From: Shigella phage ESh30 | Direction: 5' to 3' (one strand) | Length of the DNA: 64,000 bases | Sequence record: ON528740 | Part shown: positions 845 to 49,088 of the stretch, one piece after another | Layout: each line of letters opens with the position of its first letter | Numbering within the stretch: position 1 is the stretch's first letter | Position numbers and translations under genes: made by a program | The notes under the pieces: generated by a model | Told to the model about the DNA's origin: nothing | The model's input: the letters and a program-made list of their open reading frames with translations, nothing else | The model's database searches: none

Positions 845-1527
845 TGTTTGATTTTATTATAGATTTTGAAACGATGGGAAGCGGTGAAAAAGCAGCTGTT
901 ATTGATTTGGCTGTAATTGCTTTTGACCCTAACCCGGAAGTTGTTGAAACATTCGATGAACTAGTTTCACGTGGCATTAAAATTAAATTTGACTTAAAAA
1001 GTCAAAAAGGACATCGTCTTTTTACTAAAAGCACTATCGAATGGTGGAAGAATCAATCTCCTGAAGCTAGAAAAAATATTGCACCATCAGATGAAGATGT
1101 AAGCACTATCGATGGTATTGCAAAATTCAATGATTACATCAATGCACATAACATCGATCCTTGGAAATCTCAAGGTTGGTGCCGTGGAATGTCGTTTGAT
1201 TTTCCAATTTTAGTCGATCTCATTCGCGATATTCAACGTCTTAACGGCGTTTCCGAGAATGAGCTTGACACATTTAAGTTAGAACCATGTAAATTCTGGA
1301 ATCAGCGTGATATTCGTACCAGAATTGAAGCACTTCTACTTGTTCGTGATATGACCACGTGTCCTCTTCCAAATGGAACTTTAGATGGATTCGTTGCACA
1401 TGATTCTATTCATGACTGTGCGAAAGACATCCTGATGATGAAGTATGCTTTGCGATACGCTATGGGTCTTGAAGATGCTCCGTCAGAGGAAGAGTGCGAT
1501 CCTCTATCTCTTCCAACAAAACGATAA
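844..1527 (+). CDS. dexA: exonuclease A (3'-5' DNA exonuclease), 227 aa
   Basis: 227-aa ORF MFDFIIDFETMGSG... with DEDD-type exonuclease N-terminal motif; position downstream of dda as in T4. Confidence 0.8.
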   Translation: MFDFIIDFETMGSGEKAAVIDLAVIAFDPNPEVVETFDELVSRGIKIKFDLKSQKGHRLFTKSTIEWWKNQSPEARKNIAPSDEDVSTIDGIAKFNDYINAHNIDPWKSQGWCRGMSFDFPILVDLIRDIQRLNGVSENELDTFKLEPCKFWNQRDIRTRIEALLLVRDMTTCPLPNGTLDGFVAHDSIHDCAKDILMMKYALRYAMGLEDAPSEEECDPLSLPTKR

Positions 1528-1533
1528 AAAGTT

Positions 1534-1566
1534 GTTTACTTCCTCGGTTAGTTGTGGTATTATAAC
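1534..1566 (+). promoter_or_regulatory. T4-type early promoter (-35 GTTTAC, extended -10 GTGGTATTATAAC)
   Basis: gttgtttacttcctcggttagttgtggtattataac matches T4 early promoter consensus; ORF-track start at 1552 lies inside it. Confidence 0.6.
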
Positions 1567-1590
1567 ACCATAGCTACTGAGGATAATAAA

Positions 1591-2091
1591 ATGAAAATTT
1601 ATCGTGTTGAATCATCGTTTAGTATTCTTGATTATGAAGATGCTATAACAATACGTCGAAATCTTTGTGTTCAAATAACGCCGTACAGGAGTATAATAGA
1701 TTCATGGAGCGAAGAGTGGCTATTACACGTAGGTTATGACAGACCTAATTTTATGCATCATAGCGATAATAATAAAAGAATTCCTTTACCACACGAAGAT
1801 AAACTATTAGTTAAAAACGCTAATATAGTAATTAATACTAAGTTCAAGAAAGATTATGTTGGAGTAGAATATCATATTCCAGGATGGTTTATAGGTCTTT
1901 ATCATTTTGCTTTCGCTAGTGAATATGATATGATGAGATGGTTCACACGAGAAGAGCGGGAAGAATTATCTTCTAAAGGATTTTATCTCGCTGTATACGA
2001 AGTTCCTGAAGATGAAGTTATCATTGGTGGGCACCAAGTAATGTTCCGCAAATCGCATGCTGAACTCGTAGATTTTATTGAAATGAGATAA
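1591..2091 (+). CDS. hypothetical protein (~166 aa)
   Basis: ORF track 1552..2091 trimmed to ATG 1591 preceded by RBS aggataataaa. Confidence 0.5.
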   Translation: MKIYRVESSFSILDYEDAITIRRNLCVQITPYRSIIDSWSEEWLLHVGYDRPNFMHHSDNNKRIPLPHEDKLLVKNANIVINTKFKKDYVGVEYHIPGWFIGLYHFAFASEYDMMRWFTREEREELSSKGFYLAVYEVPEDEVIIGGHQVMFRKSHAELVDFIEMR

Positions 2092-34437: not shown

Positions 34438-34785
34438 ATGAATTTTAATTATTACCCTATTCTATTAGAAAAAGACACGAAACAGCCAAAGTGGCAGGGT
34501 CCTCAGTTTATTAAAGGTGTCTATCAATTAGTAGTTCCTAAAGACAAGATTTATAGCAGTTGTTTCACTGAATCCGCTTGCAGTATTTTCGGTAATAGTT
34601 CTCCGTATTGGAATTTTGACATAAAGCTGGATAGAAATATCGATATTTGGTTGAAAGCTATGGATATTGGTAATATCATGTTTGATGAGAATAATTATCA
34701 TATTATTGGTCGCTTTTCCAAACGTGGTAAAGAATTATATTTCACACCTGAAATTGAGAGAAAATTTGATGCTAAACCGTATTGA
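34438..34785 (+). CDS. hypothetical protein (115 aa) carried on a cassette inserted between frd and td
   Basis: ORF track; own RBS ggcggaaat; no recognisable motif; not expected at this position from T4. Confidence 0.5.
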   Translation: MNFNYYPILLEKDTKQPKWQGPQFIKGVYQLVVPKDKIYSSCFTESACSIFGNSSPYWNFDIKLDRNIDIWLKAMDIGNIMFDENNYHIIGRFSKRGKELYFTPEIERKFDAKPY

Positions 34786-34830: not shown

Positions 34831-36011
34831 ATGAAACAATACCAAGATTTAATTAAAGACATTTTTGAAAATGGCTATGAAACCGATGACCGAACAGGCA
34901 CAGGAACAATTGCTTTATTCGGTACTAAATTACGCTGGGATTTAACTAAAGGTTTTCCTGCGGTAACAACTAAGAAGCTCGCCTGGAAAGCTTGCATTGC
35001 TGAGCTACTTTGGTTTTTATCAGGAAGCACAAATGTCAATGATTTACGATTAATTCAGCATGATTCGTTAATCCAAGGCAAAACAGTTTGGGATGAAAAT
35101 TACGAAAATCAGGCAAAAGATTTAGGATACCATAGTGGTGAACTTGGCCCAATTTATGGAAAACAGTGGCGCGATTTTGGCGGTGTAGACCAAATTATAG
35201 AAGTTATTGATCGTATTAAAAAACTACCAAGTGATAGGCGTCAAATTGTTTCTGCGTGGAATCCAGCTGAACTTAAATATATGGCATTACCACCTTGTCA
35301 TATGTTCTATCAGTTTAATGTGCGTAATGGTTATCTTGATTTACAATGGTATCAACGCAGTGTAGATGTTTTCTTGGGTTAATTGAGGCCTAGGTATAAG
35401 GTGACTTATACTTGTAATCTATCTAAACGGGGGACCTCTCTAGTAGACAATCCCGTGCTAAATTGTAGGACTACCCTTTAATAATTTCATCAGGATTAGT
35501 TACTTACCGTGTAAAATCTGATAAATGGAATTGGTTCTACATAAATGCCTAACGACTATCCCTTTGGGGAGTAGGGTCAAGTGACTCGAAACGATAGACA
35601 ACTTGCTTTAACAAGTTGAAGATATAGTCTGATCTGCATGGTGACATGCAGCTGGATATAATTCCGGGGTAAGATTAACGACCTTATCTGAACATAATGC
35701 TTCCATTTAATATTGCATCATATGCTACGTTAGTTCATATTGTAGCTAAGATGTGTAATCTTATTCCGGGAGATTTGATATTTTCCGGTGGTAATACTCA
35801 TATCTATATGAATCACGTAGAACAATGTAAAGAAATTTTGCGTCGTGAACCTAAAGAGCTTTGTGAACTGGTAATAGGCGGATTGCCTTATAAATTCCGC
35901 TATCTTTCTACTAAAGAACAATTGGAATACATTCTTAAACTCAGGCCTAAAGATTTCGTTCTCAAAGATTATCAGTCCCACGGCGTCTTGAAAGGAAAAA
36001 TGGCGGTGTAA
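34831..36011 (+). CDS. td: thymidylate synthase, interrupted by a group I intron: join(34831..35379, 35700..36011), 286 aa
   Basis: Exon 1 MKQYQDLIKDIFENGYETDDRTGTG...QRSVDVFLG and exon 2 LPFNIASYATLVHIVAKMCNLIPGD...KGKMAV join in frame to give a 286-aa thymidylate synthase. Confidence 0.92.
35380..35699 (+). ncRNA. self-splicing group I intron in td (320 nt), lacking an intact homing-endonuclease ORF
   Basis: Begins UAAUUGAGGCC right after exon-terminal U, ends ...CUGAACAUAAUG (terminal G); conserved core segments of the T4 td intron recognisable. Confidence 0.88.
35484..35552 (+). pseudogene. 3'-terminal remnant of homing endonuclease I-TevI (last ~22 codons)
   Basis: Translation IISSGLVTYRVKSDKWNWFYINA* matches the C-terminus of T4 I-TevI; no start codon or GIY-YIG domain upstream. 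Confidence 0.75.
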
Positions 36012-36298: not shown

Positions 36299-36578
36299 AT
36301 ACAAATCCGACTTTGATGTGAATATTCACCGTGGTACATTTTGGGGAAATTACGTCGGTAAAGATGCTGGCAGCCGGGAGGCTGCCATTGAATTATTCAA
36401 AAAAGATTTTATACGTCGAATTAAATCCGGAGAAATAACTAAAGCACATTTAGAGCCTTTACGTGGAATGAGGCTAGGATGCACATGTAAACCAAAGCCG
36501 TGTCATGGTGATATAATAGCTCATATAGTTAACCGATTGTTTAAAGACGATTTTCAAGTTGAGGACTTATGCAATTAA
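36252..36578 (+). CDS. hypothetical protein (108 aa) with Cys/His motif [12 protein letters not shown]
   Basis: ORF track; possible metal-binding motif. Confidence 0.45.
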
Positions 36579-38833
36579 TTAATGTTATCAAAAGTAGTGG
36601 TGTTTCTCAGAGCTTTGACCCACAAAAAATTATTAAAGTTTTATCTTGGGCAGCTGAGGGAACATCAGTAGATCCTTATGAATTATATGAAAATATTAAA
36701 TCTTATCTCCGTGATGGAATGACAACTGATGATATTCAGACTATTGTCATTAAGGCCGCTGCGAATTCTATTTCGGTTGAAGAGCCTGATTATCAATATG
36801 TAGCTGCACGTTGTCTAATGTTCGCTCTTCGTAAGCATGTTTATGGGCAGTATGAACCGCGTTCATTTATTGACCATATTTCTTACTGTGTAAATGAAGG
36901 TAAATACGACCCTGAACTGTTGTCAAAATATTCAGCAGAAGAAATTACATTTTTAGAATCAAAAATTAAGCACGAACGGGATATGGAATTTACTTATTCC
37001 GGGGCGATGCAATTAAAAGAAAAATATCTAGTTAAAGATAAAACCACTGGTCAAATTTATGAAACTCCACAGTTTGCATTTATGACTATTGGAATGGCCT
37101 TGCATCAAGATGAACCTGTTGATAGATTAAAACACGTTATTCGTTTTTATGAAGCAGTATCTACTCGACAGATTTCATTGCCAACTCCTATTATGGCTGG
37201 TTGTCGTACTCCGACTCGACAGTTCAGTTCATGCGTTGTTATTGAGGCAGGTGATTCATTGAAGTCTATCAATAAGGCTTCCGCTTCAATTGTTGAATAT
37301 ATCTCTAAACGCGCTGGAATTGGTATTAATGTTGGCATGATTCGTGCCGAAGGTTCTAAGATTGGCATGGGTGAAGTACGTCATACTGGTGTTATTCCTT
37401 TTTGGAAACATTTTCAGACTGCAGTTAAATCATGTTCACAGGGTGGAATTCGTGGCGGCGCTGCTACTGCTTATTATCCTATTTGGCATTTGGAAGTTGA
37501 AAATCTTCTCGTTTTGAAAAATAACAAAGGCGTAGAAGAAAACCGCATTCGTCATATGGATTATGGCGTTCAACTGAATGATTTGATGATGGAACGTTTT
37601 GGAAAGAACGATTACATTACTTTGTTCAGTCCCCATGAAATGGGTGGAGAGCTTTATTATTCTTATTTTAAAGACCAAGACCGTTTCCGTGAATTATACG
37701 AAGCAGCAGAAAAAGACCCTAATATTCGTAAAAAGCGTATTAAAGCCCGTGAACTATTTGAATTGCTCATGACTGAACGCTCAGGAACAGCAAGAATTTA
37801 TGTACAGTTCATTGATAATACGAATAACTATACTCCGTTTATTCGTGAAAAGGCACCTATTCGTCAGAGTAACTTGTGCTGTGAAATTGCTATTCCAACA
37901 AATGATGTGAATAGTCCTGATGCTGAAATTGGATTGTGCACGTTATCTGCATTTGTGTTGGATAACTTCGATTGGCAAGACCAAGATAAAATTAATGAAT
38001 TGGCAGAAGTCCAAGTTCGTGCTCTTGATAATCTTTTGGATTACCAAGGATATCCAGTTCCTGAAGCAGAAAAAGCTAAAAAGCGTCGTAACCTTGGTGT
38101 AGGTGTTACTAACTATGCAGCTTGGCTGGCAAGTAACTTTGCTTCTTATGAAGATGCTAACGATTTAACACATGAACTATTTGAGAGATTACAGTATGGA
38201 CTCATTAAAGCATCCATTAAGCTCGCCAAAGAAAAAGGACCTTGCGAATATTATTCAGACACTCGTTGGTCTCGAGGCGAATTACCTATCGACTGGTACA
38301 ATAAAAAGATTGACCAAATCGCAGCTCCAAAATACGTTTGTGACTGGTCGTCGCTGCGGGAAGACCTTAAGCTCTTTGGCATCCGTAATAGCACATTATC
38401 GGCACTTATGCCATGTGAGTCATCTTCCCAAGTTTCTAACAGTACAAACGGTATCGAGCCTCCACGTGGACCAGTCTCTGTTAAAGAATCAAAAGAGGGC
38501 TCCTTTAATCAAGTCGTGCCCAATATTGAGCATAACATAGACCTATATGATTATACGTGGAAATTAGCTAAGAAAGGTAATAAACCTTATCTTACGCAGG
38601 TAGCTATTATGCTGAAATGGGTATGTCAATCAGCTTCAGCGAATACATACTATGACCCGCAGATTTTTCCAAAAGGAAAGGTTCCAATGTCAATAATGAT
38701 TGATGACATGCTATACGGATGGTATTATGGCATTAAAAATTTCTATTATCATAATACCCGTGATGGTTCTGGTACTGATGATTATGAAATAGAAACTCCA
38801 AAAGCTGAAGATTGTTCATCCTGTAAATTATGA
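36569..38833 (+). CDS. nrdA: aerobic ribonucleoside-diphosphate reductase large subunit (754 aa)
   Basis: 754 aa, same length as T4 NrdA; N-terminal ATP-cone and class I RNR catalytic core. Confidence 0.95.
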   Translation: MQLINVIKSSGVSQSFDPQKIIKVLSWAAEGTSVDPYELYENIKSYLRDGMTTDDIQTIVIKAAANSISVEEPDYQYVAARCLMFALRKHVYGQYEPRSFIDHISYCVNEGKYDPELLSKYSAEEITFLESKIKHERDMEFTYSGAMQLKEKYLVKDKTTGQIYETPQFAFMTIGMALHQDEPVDRLKHVIRFYEAVSTRQISLPTPIMAGCRTPTRQFSSCVVIEAGDSLKSINKASASIVEYISKRAGIGINVGMIRAEGSKIGMGEVRHTGVIPFWKHFQTAVKSCSQGGIRGGAATAYYPIWHLEVENLLVLKNNKGVEENRIRHMDYGVQLNDLMMERFGKNDYITLFSPHEMGGELYYSYFKDQDRFRELYEAAEKDPNIRKKRIKARELFELLMTERSGTARIYVQFIDNTNNYTPFIREKAPIRQSNLCCEIAIPTNDVNSPDAEIGLCTLSAFVLDNFDWQDQDKINELAEVQVRALDNLLDYQGYPVPEAEKAKKRRNLGVGVTNYAAWLASNFASYEDANDLTHELFERLQYGLIKASIKLAKEKGPCEYYSDTRWSRGELPIDWYNKKIDQIAAPKYVCDWSSLREDLKLFGIRNSTLSALMPCESSSQVSNSTNGIEPPRGPVSVKESKEGSFNQVVPNIEHNIDLYDYTWKLAKKGNKPYLTQVAIMLKWVCQSASANTYYDPQIFPKGKVPMSIMIDDMLYGWYYGIKNFYYHNTRDGSGTDDYEIETPKAEDCSSCKL

Positions 38834-38884
38834 TATAATTTGACTCACGGACGAGTCACCAACTATTAACTAAGTGGAAAATTT

Positions 38885-40063
38885 ATGAGCACAGTTTTTA
38901 ATACAAACCCAGTTGATGTTTTAAAAGAACCTATGTTTTTTGGTTCAGGTCTTGGTATTGCGCGTTATGATATTCAACGGCATCGAGTATTTGAAGAACT
39001 TACAGAGAAGTCCTTATCATTTTTCTGGCGCCCGGAAGAAGTAAACTTAATGATGGATGCTGCACAGTTTAATAAGCTTCCTCAGTATCAGCAAAATATT
39101 TTTACTAACAACTTGAAGTATCAATCACTTTTGGATAGCATTCAGGGTCGTGCGCCGTCTGCTGTACTTATGTCATTAATTTCAAACCCAAGCCTTGATA
39201 CGTGGGTTGCTACATGGACTTTTAGTGAAACTATTCACAGTCGTTCATATACACATATCATGCGAAATCTTTATACTGATCCATCGAAGGTATTTGATGA
39301 GATTGTATTAGATGAAGCTATTATGAAACGTGCTGAATCCATTGGACGTTATTATGATGATGTTCTGATTAAAACTCGTGAATGGGAAAATGCTAAAGAA
39401 TTTGTAGAACTATCTAAAGAATCTCCTGATGCCGACTTTCGTTTAAACCGAGCTATTAAACAAGAAGCCGAAGCTAAACGTGCTTTAATGAAATCTCTTT
39501 ACCTCTGTTTGCACGTTATTAATGCCTTAGAAGCTATTCGTTTTTATGTATCTTTCGCATGCACTTTTAACTTCCATAAGAACATGGAAATCATGGAAGG
39601 TAATGCCAAGATTATGAAGTTCATTGCGCGTGATGAGCAGCTTCATCTTAAAGGCACCCAATATATTATTCGTCAACTTCAACTTGGCACTGATGGCGAT
39701 GAATGGGTTAAAATTGCTCAAGAGTGTGAACAAGAAGCAGTTGATATTTTCATGGAAGTTAACCGCCAAGAAAAAGATTGGGCAGTTCATTTATTTAAAG
39801 ATGGAGATGTTCCTGGATTAAATACAAATAGCATGTGGAGCTTTATTGATTACTTAACTGTATCTCGTATGAAGCAGTGTGGTCTTCCATGCCCAATTAC
39901 CGATGCTCCGGTTAAACATCCATATCCTTGGATTCGTGAATATCTTAATTCTGATAATGTTCAATCTGCGCCACAAGAAGTAGAATTGTCATCTTACCTT
40001 GTTGCACAGATTGATAATGATGTTGATGATAAAGTTATGATGAGTTTTAAAAAATACTTTTAA
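38885..40063 (+). CDS. nrdB: ribonucleoside-diphosphate reductase small subunit (392 aa), uninterrupted
   Basis: Di-iron/tyrosyl-radical R2 protein; single continuous ORF with no intron. Confidence 0.92.
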   Translation: MSTVFNTNPVDVLKEPMFFGSGLGIARYDIQRHRVFEELTEKSLSFFWRPEEVNLMMDAAQFNKLPQYQQNIFTNNLKYQSLLDSIQGRAPSAVLMSLISNPSLDTWVATWTFSETIHSRSYTHIMRNLYTDPSKVFDEIVLDEAIMKRAESIGRYYDDVLIKTREWENAKEFVELSKESPDADFRLNRAIKQEAEAKRALMKSLYLCLHVINALEAIRFYVSFACTFNFHKNMEIMEGNAKIMKFIARDEQLHLKGTQYIIRQLQLGTDGDEWVKIAQECEQEAVDIFMEVNRQEKDWAVHLFKDGDVPGLNTNSMWSFIDYLTVSRMKQCGLPCPITDAPVKHPYPWIREYLNSDNVQSAPQEVELSSYLVAQIDNDVDDKVMMSFKKYF

Positions 40064-48755: not shown

Positions 48756-49088
48756 ATGAAAACGATTAATCTGAACGCTGCAGTTAAAACTAAATGCTTC
48801 AATGGTAAATATGATGAAACTATGTGGTTCTTAATGGCAGTTGAAGGTGATATTATTGAAGTAGAAACAACAGAAGGTATGGGAACAGATTTCACCTTTA
48901 CAATTCAAGTTCATAATTTCTTTACTGGTTGGATTTATGAATTGAATACAGTAATCGTTGGAAAAATTGAACAAAATGAATTAGGTGAATGGTATTATGT
49001 TACAGCTCGCCAACGTGCCGAACGCTTAATTGAGAAGATGAAAAAAGTTGGTAAACTTGACATGCAGCATTGGAAAGTAGTAAAATAA
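48756..49088 (+). CDS. hypothetical protein (110 aa)
   Basis: ORF track. Confidence 0.5.
   Translation: MKTINLNAAVKTKCFNGKYDETMWFLMAVEGDIIEVETTEGMGTDFTFTIQVHNFFTGWIYELNTVIVGKIEQNELGEWYYVTARQRAERLIEKMKKVGKLDMQHWKVVK

What the first reader, a model, noticed from the sequence alone, without database searches (positions are those of the whole stretch)
35380..35699. td group I intron that has lost its homing endonuclease: only the last ~22 codons of I-TevI remain
Thymidylate synthase is split by a 320-nt group I intron (exon 1 ends ...FLG at 35379, intron starts with in-frame UAA, ends with G at 35699, exon 2 LPFNIAS...). In T4 this intron is about 1 kb and carries the GIY-YIG endonuclease I-TevI. 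Here the ORF is absent, but 35484..35552 still translates to IISSGLVTYRVKSDKWNWFYINA*, the I-TevI C-terminus. This looks like a natural deletion derivative caught in the degeneration phase of the homing-endonuclease cycle, and it tests whether the ribozyme core tolerates the deletion.
Basis: partly seen in the sequence, partly recalled or inferred. Interest (0 to 1): 0.62.

Follow-up and report, generated by a model that had tools for sequence, protein, structure and literature searches.

The report
T4-type td intron lacking I-TevI
The thymidylate synthase gene of this T4-like phage carries the classic T4 self-splicing intron, from which one 696-base deletion has removed the homing endonuclease gene; this is a correct but ordinary finding, because the same allele is already present in at least 16 public phage genome records.

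Summary
Window 35380..35699 is a 320-nt group I intron (Rfam RF00028, 70.3 bits against a threshold of 50). It splits a thymidylate synthase gene whose joined exons give a full 286-aa enzyme. Compared with the 1016-nt T4-type td intron, it has one 696-nt deletion with a 2-nt AA microhomology at the junction. The deletion removes the I-TevI promoter and ribosome-binding region and codons 1-223. Codons 224-245 remain (22/22 identical to T4) with no start codon.

The last ~20 nt of that remnant form the 3' strands of P6a and P6, so they are required ribozyme sequence. The other ~50 nt lie in the dispensable L6a loop. Every core helix still pairs canonically.

The same junction occurs in 16 public phage records (13 named phages, several countries). 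At least four other independent ORF-less td alleles exist (445, 315, 262 and 254 nt).

Roughly 187 records keep I-TevI, about 35 have lost it and about 460 have no intron. The intron is probably still splicing-competent, cannot home by itself, and should be immune to I-TevI.

Tolerance of deletions in this loop is long established. This is a new allele of a very well-known element, of low interest.

The parts
34831..35379 (+). td (thymidylate synthase) exon 1, 183 codons, ending ...CAA CGC AGT GTA GAT GTT TTC TTG GGT. The last 7 nt (CUUGGGU) form the 5' strand of P1, with the U.G wobble at the splice site.
   Evidence: The spliced product covers the full Pfam PF00303 model and aligns end to end with T4 TS 1TIS. 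P1 pairs are all canonical.
35380..35699 (+). Group I intron (T4 td type), 320 nt. It equals nt 1-103/105 plus 800/802-1016 of the 1016-nt full-length intron.
   Evidence: Rfam RF00028, 70.3 bits. Alignments to T4 and CHD2BS1. The same intron is 98.4-100% identical in 16 phage records.
35380..35382 (+). In-frame UAA, the first 3 nt of the intron. It stops ribosomes coming from exon 1 at the 5' splice site.
   Evidence: Sequence. The exon-1 ORF ends at 35382. The same arrangement is described for T4 (PMC8565351 figure legend).
35388..35394 (+). Internal guide sequence GCCUAGG, the 3' strand of P1. T4 has GCCUGAG. The G/A swap keeps both partners paired with exon U residues.
   Evidence: All 7 P1 pairs are canonical.
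35482..35484 (+). Deletion junction (CCCTTTAAT-AA-TTTCATC). 696 nt are missing relative to the 1016-nt intron. The crossover lies within a 2-nt AA microhomology, inside imperfect repeats TTTAATAA and TTTAAAAT.
   Evidence: deleted reference nt 104-799 up to 106-801. The junction is the same in MLP2-type carriers.
35484..35552 (+). I-TevI remnant: codons 224-245 plus the TAA stop, with no start codon and no upstream ORF. It is the C-terminal end of the DNA-binding domain only.
   Evidence: No + strand ORF of 20 aa or more covers it.
35533..35548 (+). The part of the remnant that is ribozyme: the 3' strands of the extended P6a (GGUUCUACA) and of P6 (GC).
   Evidence: Pairs are canonical and in the MFE structure with bpp 0.98 and 0.91. 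PMC3073962 reports that the last 20 nt of I-TevI form P6a/P6/P7. It is retained in the 445-, 315- and 262-nt alleles; the 254-nt N2 allele keeps only TAAATGCCTAA and supplies its own GUUC/GAAC P6a hairpin.
35553..35699 (+). 3' half of the core: P7, P7.1, P7.2, P3', P8, J8/7, P7', P9, P9.1, P9.2 and the terminal G (35699). It differs from the nearest full-length intron only at J8/7 (G to A, which matches the Rfam consensus).
35700..36011 (+). td exon 2 (103 codons plus stop), starting CUU. C and U pair with the P1 loop as P10, as in T4.
   Evidence: P10 is described in PMC8554844.

Best explanation
This is the T4-type td group I intron (the T4 td type, with P7.1/P7.2 and P9.1/P9.2) after a single 696-nt internal deletion in the L6a loop, probably by slippage or microhomology-mediated joining at a short A/T repeat. 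The deletion removed the I-TevI late-promoter and RBS region and codons 1-223. Shown: the exact deletion endpoints, the absence of any I-TevI catalytic or linker sequence in the window, the retention of every core helix with canonical pairs, intact exons, and the same allele in many independent phage isolates. Inferred: the RNA still self-splices. In that model the ribosome stops at the UAA at the splice site. Guanosine then attacks after the U.G pair of P1, and the terminal G at 35699 defines the 3' splice site. The result is mRNA for a 286-aa thymidylate synthase. Without I-TevI the intron cannot start its own homing. It persists by vertical descent and ordinary recombination, because only a precise excision would restore the gene. 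It should not be cut by I-TevI from a co-infecting phage, because the intron splits the homing site. The last ~20 nt of the remnant are kept because they are the 3' strands of P6a and P6. The other ~50 nt are a neutral leftover in a tolerant loop.
For: Rfam group I model, full length, 70.3 bits. The alignment to T4 and CHD2BS1 introns shows one 696-nt gap and only 8 substitutions in 320 shared positions; none of them breaks a helix pair. The substitutions lie in the P1 guide (pairing kept), J4/5, L6a and J8/7. All 14 helices written on the window sequence are fully canonical, and the MFE fold recovers P1-P6a, P7.2, P8, P9 and P9.1 with high pair probability. The remnant folds back into an extended P6a arm rather than into the core. 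The remnant is 22/22 identical to I-TevI 224-245, and there is no other I-TevI similarity in the window. The spliced ORF is intact in all 11 carriers of the 320-nt (319-nt in 235Ecol030PP) allele examined, the window included, and exon differences are mostly synonymous, e.g. 33 nt and 2 aa against MLP2, and 4 nt and 0 aa against HP3. The same junction is in 16 records. Four other independent deletions (445, 315, 262 and 254 nt) all remove ORF sequence but keep the core: three keep the native P6a 3' strand, the 254-nt allele has its own GUUC/GAAC P6a hairpin, and all keep the TAAATGCCTAA stretch that holds the P6 3' strand. P8 shows compensatory changes among alleles: A-U to U-A in U5 and N2, and an added C-G pair in EI. 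Literature: the last 20 nt of I-TevI are part of P6a/P6/P7 (PMC3073962). The P6-L6a region is deletion-tolerant (Salvo et al. 1990, cited in PMC1851640). The intron stays active when permuted in the ORF region of P6a (PMC8554844).
Against: No splicing assay or RNA data are available here. The window sub-lineage (U115, L14, HP3, SYGD1) carries A54G in J4/5, a junction that in group I introns contacts the splice-site wobble pair (own knowledge). Its effect is unknown, and it is absent from the full-length introns and the other short td alleles examined. Phage td is dispensable on thyA+ hosts (own knowledge), so phage viability does not prove splicing. Most exon divergence among carriers may predate the deletion and come from recombination, which weakens the purifying-selection argument.
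Confidence: 0.88

Rival explanations
1. The intron is present but no longer splices efficiently, because of A54G in J4/5 or misfolding by the 68-nt L6a remnant. On this reading td is effectively a pseudogene in this lineage.
For: A54G and the GA-to-AG change in the guide sequence are specific to the window sub-lineage. td is not essential on thyA+ hosts (own knowledge).
Against: Both exons are intact in every carrier. The four exon differences between HP3 and the window are all synonymous. The guide-sequence change keeps all P1 pairs. The remnant pairs locally as an extended P6a. The MLP2-type carriers of the same deletion lack A54G.
Confidence: 0.07
2. The 320-nt form is ancestral: an ORF-less intron into which I-TevI later inserted, rather than a deletion derivative.
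For: ORF-less phage introns that were later invaded by endonuclease genes are a recognised scenario (collaborative homing; PMC2988022, PMC3984707). The 254-nt N2-type allele has a clean GUUC-UUUU-GAAC P6a hairpin that could be such a form.
Against: The window intron holds 66 nt of I-TevI coding sequence, 22/22 aa identical, with no start codon. It also holds the first few nt of the I-TevI upstream region, truncated. It differs from a full-length intron by only 8 of 320 nt. An insertion would not leave a headless C-terminal fragment in the empty allele.
Confidence: 0.02
3. The roughly 50 nt of remnant beyond P6a are retained for a function, such as a stabilising arm, a protein-binding site or a regulatory element, and are not neutral.
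For: The remnant is nearly invariant among the 16 records with the 320-nt allele, with 1-2 substitutions. It forms a moderately stable arm (-17.1 kcal/mol).
Against: The fold is not unusual (z -1.69; 14 of 200 shuffles fold as well). The 262-nt and 254-nt natural alleles lack the segment entirely, and the 315-nt allele keeps a different segment. The low variation fits a recent origin: the whole intron varies by 1.6% or less.
Confidence: 0.03

Closest known systems
Phage T4 td group I intron with I-TevI (NC_000866 td/I-TevI; 1016 nt)
   Same: Same gene, same insertion site (after GGT of FLG), same in-frame UAA, same terminal G. All core helices P1-P9.2 are present, and there are only 9 substitutions in 320 shared positions.
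   Different: It lacks 696 nt: the I-TevI upstream region and codons 1-223. It therefore has no GIY-YIG nuclease and no self-mobility. The guide sequence is GCCUAGG instead of GCCUGAG, and there is an A54G change in J4/5.
Laboratory ORF-deleted or permuted td introns (Salvo, Coetzee & Belfort 1990 P6-L6a deletions; permuted intron-exon constructs, PMC8554844)
   Same: The I-TevI region of L6a is removed or interrupted while the core is kept. These constructs splice, which is the basis for predicting activity here.
   Different: This allele is natural, with its own endpoints, and keeps 66 nt of ORF. It has not been assayed.
T4 nrdB intron with the internally deleted, defunct I-TevIII (Eddy & Gold 1991, cited in PMC2988022 and PMC2790892)
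   Same: It is a T-even phage group I intron whose homing endonuclease gene was inactivated by a natural internal deletion while the intron stayed in the gene.
   Different: It is in a different gene and involves a different endonuclease family (HNH). In T4 a neighbouring free-standing endonuclease (mobE) moves that intron in trans. No mobE-like gene is evident next to td or between nrdA and the nrdB-sized ORF here.
Other natural ORF-less td alleles in public phage genomes: 445 nt (G28, F1, FN, FL18, 112), 315 nt (Klebsiella phage EI), 262 nt (PD112, CE1, 215Ecol030PP, BYEP01), 254 nt (N2, CJY920, HMD-9, GRNsp7, 236Ecol005PP)
   Same: Same intron and same site. I-TevI has been lost while the core is kept; three alleles keep the native P6a 3' strand (the 254-nt allele has its own P6a hairpin) and all keep the P6 3' strand.
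   Different: The endpoints differ, so these are independent events. The 445-nt form is an in-frame fusion at the two CATTTTAAA (RHFK) repeats. The 315-nt form keeps the I-TevI promoter, RBS and first codons.

Membership tests
Group I self-splicing intron (Rfam RF00028; T4 td type) | Conserved core secondary structure P1-P9, scored by a covariance model | tested here: met
   70.3 bits against a gathering score of 50, model positions 1-253 of 253, E 8e-16. All helices are canonical on the sequence.
Group I self-splicing intron (Rfam RF00028; T4 td type) | U.G wobble pair at the 5' splice site in P1, formed with an internal guide sequence | tested here: met
   Exon CUUGGGU pairs with intron GCCUAGG (35388..35394), and U(-1).G9 is a wobble.
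Group I self-splicing intron (Rfam RF00028; T4 td type) | Terminal guanosine at the 3' splice site, and removal of the intron restores the host reading frame | tested here: met
   There is a G at 35699. The joined exons give a 286-aa full-length thymidylate synthase.
Group I self-splicing intron (Rfam RF00028; T4 td type) | Guanosine-dependent self-splicing activity | not testable with these tools
   This needs in vitro transcription with GTP labelling, or RT-PCR from infected cells. It is inferred from near identity to the T4 intron and from published deletion tolerance of L6a.
Mobile intron carrying a GIY-YIG homing endonuclease (I-TevI) | Intact ORF with the N-terminal GIY-YIG catalytic domain, linker/zinc finger and C-terminal DNA-binding domain | tested here: not met
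   Only residues 224-245 are present. Pfam finds only positions 31-51 of 51 of I-TevI_DNA-bd. There is no start codon and no ORF of 20 aa or more.
Mobile intron carrying a GIY-YIG homing endonuclease (I-TevI) | I-TevI expression signals upstream of the ORF in L6a (late promoter, RBS hairpin) | tested here: not met
   The deletion starts at full-length nt 104-106, 26-28 nt upstream of the ATG at nt 132. TTTAATAAATAC becomes TTTAATAATTTC.
Thymidylate synthase (Pfam PF00303) as host gene | Full-length domain after exon joining | tested here: met
   317 bits, profile positions 1-266 of 266. It aligns 1-286 with T4 TS 1TIS at E 5e-194, with 12 aa differences from T4.

The most novel reading that the evidence does not exclude
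ORF-less td introns may be more than decaying leftovers. At least five independently generated I-TevI-less alleles circulate in about 35 public T4-like genomes. The 320-nt one sits in at least two different exon-1 backgrounds on several continents. This would fit a model in which an endonuclease-free intron is favoured. It would keep the td allele immune to I-TevI cleavage, and to the marker exclusion that follows, during co-infection. It would also avoid the cost of the endonuclease gene and the known interference of I-TevI translation with splicing. The Tequatrovirus td locus would then be a natural population snapshot of all three states of the homing cycle: about 460 empty, about 187 intron with endonuclease gene, and about 35 intron only.
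Probability: 0.2. Interest if true: 0.4.

Novelty: new member of a known kind. Interest (0 to 1): 0.2.

Why it matters
It matters only modestly. It is a clean natural example of the intron-only stage of the homing-endonuclease life cycle in the best-studied phage intron, with nucleotide-exact endpoints. Set beside four other independent deletions, it shows what selection protects (the core, up to and including the P6a/P6 3' strands that overlap the end of I-TevI) and what it does not (the rest of the ORF). The practical value is in annotation. Public records with this allele list td as two separate 'thymidylate synthase' CDSs, with exon 2 started at a spurious ATG made of the intron's last three bases, and some call 'hypothetical proteins' inside the intron. 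It opens no new question about ribozyme deletion tolerance, which was settled experimentally decades ago.

Tried and rejected
(1) I expected Sandegren & Sjoberg 2004 (JBC) to have described natural I-TevI deletions. The paper is not held. The td records from that study that are in the collection (T6, LZ2, RB3, U5, TuIa) all carry a 1016-nt intron. I therefore make no claim that this allele was published there. A 2010 review states that the three T-even introns described all encode their own endonuclease genes (PMC2993671).

(2) A MAFFT alignment suggested that Klebsiella phage EI shares the window's junction. Direct inspection showed a different, independent deletion between GGAAT repeats that keeps the I-TevI promoter, RBS and first codons. 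The shared-junction idea is rejected.

(3) The dense synonymous patch in exon 1 (-49..-19), next to the I-TevI cleavage motif, looked like a lineage-specific recoding. It turned out to be a common haplotype, identical to intronless Mosigvirus ST0 td. It is ordinary mosaicism and is not evidence of selection against cleavage.

(4) I searched the window for a second I-TevI-like gene that could act in trans and found nothing significant.

(5) Six literature searches for a description of a natural I-TevI-less td intron found none in the held library.

(6) A simple split-point script failed for the G28 and EI alleles because of small indels. Those endpoints come instead.

Full report
OBSERVATION. 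The region reads exactly as described.
- An ORF from 34831 ends ...GAT GTT TTC TTG GGT at 35379 and is followed at once by TAA.
- At 35700 the frame resumes with CTT CCA TTT AAT ATT (LPFNI...) and runs to a stop at 36011.
- Rfam's group I intron model matches 35370..35651 over its whole length (positions 1-253 of 253, 70.3 bits against a gathering score of 50, E 8e-16). It is the only Rfam match in the 64-kb window.
- The joined exons give a 286-aa protein that covers Pfam Thymidylat_synt completely. It aligns end to end with the crystallised T4 enzyme 1TIS and differs from T4 Td at 12 residues.

The window is a Tequatrovirus. It is 98.3% identical over 24 kb to phages Elenatom and HP3. Gene order is frd, a small ORF, td, nrdA.2, nrdA.1, nrdA.

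WHAT WAS DELETED. I aligned the 320-nt intron with T4 (NC_000866) and with a 1016-nt full-length intron from phage CHD2BS1. The result is a single gap.
- The window keeps full-length nt 1 to 103-105 and nt 800-802 to 1016, so 696 nt are missing.
- The crossover lies within a 2-nt AA that is shared by ...CCCTTTAATAA|atac... on the left and ...cattttaa|AATTTCG... on the right.
- I-TevI occupies nt 132-869 of the full-length intron. The deletion therefore removes the 26-28 nt before the ATG and codons 1-223.
- Codons 224-245 remain (35484..35549, followed by TAA). [quoted passage not shown]
- The fragment has no start codon, and no ORF of 20 aa or more covers it. No other I-TevI-like sequence occurs in the window.

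THE RIBOZYME. I wrote the td helices on the window sequence. The helix assignment rests on the Rfam alignment, on published pairings (G78 pairs with C865 in P6, PMC2729099; the 2-bp P10, PMC8554844) and on my own knowledge of the td model.
- All pairs of P1, P2, P3, P4, P5, P6, P6a, P7, P7.1, P7.2, P8, P9, P9.1 and P9.2 are canonical.
- An unconstrained fold recovers P1-P6a, P7.2, P8, P9 and P9.1 with pair probabilities of 0.6-1.0. P7 is pseudoknotted with P3 and cannot be predicted this way.
- My P7.1 pairing is not in the predicted fold (0 of 4 pairs, mean probability 0.00), which forms a local CCCU/GGGG hairpin there instead. P9.2 is also not in the MFE structure (0 of 7 pairs, mean probability 0.32). 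My P7.1 assignment may be slightly off.
- The segment left by the deletion folds on itself as an extended P6a arm: UGUAGGACUA pairs with UGGUUCUACA.

Against the nearest full-length intron there are only 8 differences in 320 positions:
- two in the P1 guide sequence (GCCUGAG to GCCUAGG; each purine still pairs with an exon U);
- A54G in J4/5;
- four in L6a and the remnant;
- a J8/7 G to A that matches the Rfam consensus.

The remnant is only partly junk. Published work states that the last 20 nt of the I-TevI ORF form part of P6a, P6 and P7 and are essential for splicing (PMC3073962, PMC2988022). Here that part is roughly 35533..35552. The remaining ~50 nt lie in L6a. This is the region whose deletion tolerance is the subject of Salvo, Coetzee & Belfort 1990 (cited in PMC1851640), and where the intron can even be circularly permuted (PMC8554844).

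COMPARATIVE EVIDENCE. The 320-nt intron is found as a single uninterrupted match, 98.4-100% identical, in 16 phage records. These are U115, L14, HP3 and its derivatives, SYGD1, Pinarejo, Elenatom, C2-3, 235Ecol030PP, Shinka, 101112UKE3-1, PYps55T, MLP2 and UPWr_E2. Isolation sites include China, Spain, Poland, Germany and Chile.
- All share the same junction and three substitutions within 12 nt of it. This points to one deletion event.
- An assembly artefact is therefore excluded.
- The spliced reading frame is intact in every carrier examined.
- Exon differences are mostly synonymous: 33 nt and 2 aa against MLP2, and 4 nt and 0 aa against HP3.
- Exon 2 is identical or nearly so in most carriers and in the full-length carrier CHD2BS1. 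Phage 235Ecol030PP is an exception, with 83 differences in the distal half of exon 2.
- Exon 1 falls into two haplotypes that differ by 6-7%. The window-type haplotype, in its last 47 nt, is identical to the intronless Mosigvirus ST0 gene. The allele therefore sits in a recombining, mosaic gene.

Other natural alleles have lost I-TevI by different deletions:

| Intron length | Example phage | How it arose or what it keeps |
|---|---|---|
| 445 nt | G28 type | In-frame fusion at the two CATTTTAAA/RHFK repeats |
| 262 nt | PD112 type | L6a almost entirely removed |
| 254 nt | N2 type | Clean GUUC-UUUU-GAAC P6a hairpin |
| 315 nt | Klebsiella phage EI | Keeps the I-TevI promoter, RBS and first 4-5 codons, joined to the last ~8 |

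Three of these keep the native 3' strand of P6a. The 254-nt allele replaces it with its own GAAC strand. All four keep the TAAATGCCTAA stretch that contains the P6 3' strand. P8 shows compensatory changes among alleles.

A rough census of the phage collection gives three classes:
- about 187 records with the I-TevI interior, of which 152 are 99% or more identical to T4;
- about 35 records with short alleles;
- about 460 records with no intron.

These counts include RefSeq/GenBank duplicates and depend on megablast sensitivity.

MECHANISM. The most likely behaviour is that of an ORF-deleted T4 td intron.
1. Ribosomes translating exon 1 stop at the UAA at the splice site.
2. The RNA folds and guanosine attacks after the U.G pair of P1.
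3. The terminal G at 35699 and a short P10 define the 3' splice site.
4. The ligated mRNA encodes thymidylate synthase.

The sequence features are shown; the splicing activity is inferred. Without I-TevI the intron cannot initiate homing. It is inherited vertically and by ordinary recombination. If I-TevI were supplied in trans it could be copied into an intronless allele. Trans-homing of ORF-less or defunct introns is documented for other T4-family introns (PMC2790892, PMC3984707). Because the intron splits the homing site, this allele should not itself be cut by I-TevI.

UNCERTAINTIES. There are no RNA or activity data. A54G in J4/5 is specific to the window sub-lineage (U115, L14, HP3, SYGD1) and its effect is unknown. 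td is not essential on thyA+ hosts, so viability of these phages is weak evidence for splicing. I give about 0.07 to a splicing-impaired intron, 0.02 to an ancestral ORF-less form, and 0.03 to a functional role for the non-core remnant.

NOVELTY. The element, its structure, the endonuclease, the tolerance of L6a to deletion and the degeneration of phage intron endonucleases (T4 nrdB I-TevIII) are all textbook. I found no paper in the held library that describes a natural I-TevI-less td intron. A 2010 review says all three T-even introns described carry their endonuclease genes (PMC2993671). The five td records from the 2004 Sandegren & Sjoberg survey that are held in the collection all carry a 1016-nt intron. 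The allele is, however, already in many public genomes, unannotated. I class it as a new member of a known kind and score interest at 0.2. The most novel reading not excluded is that intron-only alleles are favoured because they give immunity to I-TevI without its cost. I give that a probability of about 0.2.

Noticed in passing
window 34438..34785 (+): A 115-aa ORF with no Pfam match lies between frd and td. T4 has no gene there (frd and td overlap). Other carriers of the same intron have a 68-aa DUF4858 ORF in this slot, while SYGD1, MLP2, HP3 and the intronless teqhal have the 115-aa one. It is a variable 'optional gene' position right next to the intron-bearing gene.
   Followed up: partly
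window 35331..35361 (exon 1, -49..-19 from the 5' splice site): There are nine synonymous differences from the T4/CHD2BS1/MLP2 haplotype within 31 nt. They include Ser AGT instead of TCA immediately 3' of the I-TevI CAACG cleavage motif. The last 47 nt of exon 1, which contain this patch, are identical to the intronless td of Mosigvirus ST0, so this is a recombinant (mosaic) segment.
   Followed up: yes
L013 (Klebsiella phage EI, MN106245) 1351..1665: A phage of another genus (Marfavirus) carries a T4-type td intron whose core is about 96% identical to the window's, while its td exons are only 60-71% identical. It has its own independent I-TevI deletion that leaves an 8-codon mini-ORF. This suggests transfer of the td intron between genera, which a 2010 review considered unproven (PMC2993671).
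   Followed up: partly
L005 (phage N2, ON645936) 1001..1254; also CJY920, HMD-9, GRNsp7, 236Ecol005PP: A 254-nt td intron in which P6a is a clean GUUC-UUUU-GAAC hairpin with no I-TevI sequence except the core-overlapping TAAATGCCTAA. It also has compensatory changes in P8. It is either a near-precise ORF loss or a form that never held the ORF.
   Followed up: partly
L003 (phage G28, NC_054916) 1131..1298; also F1, FN, FL18, vB_EcoM_112: A 445-nt td intron carries an in-frame 55-aa mini I-TevI (residues 1-33 fused to 224-245). It was made by deletion between the two CATTTTAAA repeats that encode RHFK. Its right endpoint is at the same spot as the window's deletion, which suggests a deletion hotspot or a two-step origin.
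   Followed up: partly
window 35697..36011 and homologous public records (e.g. L002, L010): Public annotations of this allele show no intron. td is given as two 'thymidylate synthase' CDSs, the second starting at an ATG formed by the last three intron bases. Some records also-33-aa 'hypothetical proteins' inside the intron on both strands.
   Followed up: yes
window 36569..40063: An nrdB-sized ORF (38885..40063, 392 aa) follows nrdA directly, without the mobE endonuclease gene found there in T4. No second group I intron is detected anywhere in the window, so nrdB appears intronless here.
   Followed up: partly
L001 (T4 NC_000866.4) td intron: The RefSeq T4 record gives a 1017-nt td intron, with an extra T near intron nt 95 (GGACTTGCCC against GGACTGCCC). 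All other full-length records examined (CHD2BS1, U5, TuIa) have 1016 nt.
   Followed up: no
window 48843..49052 (+): Weak similarity (27% over 77 aa, E 0.32) to the I-TevI N-terminal region within a 110-aa ORF (48756..49088). It may be chance or a remnant of a free-standing GIY-YIG gene.
   Followed up: no
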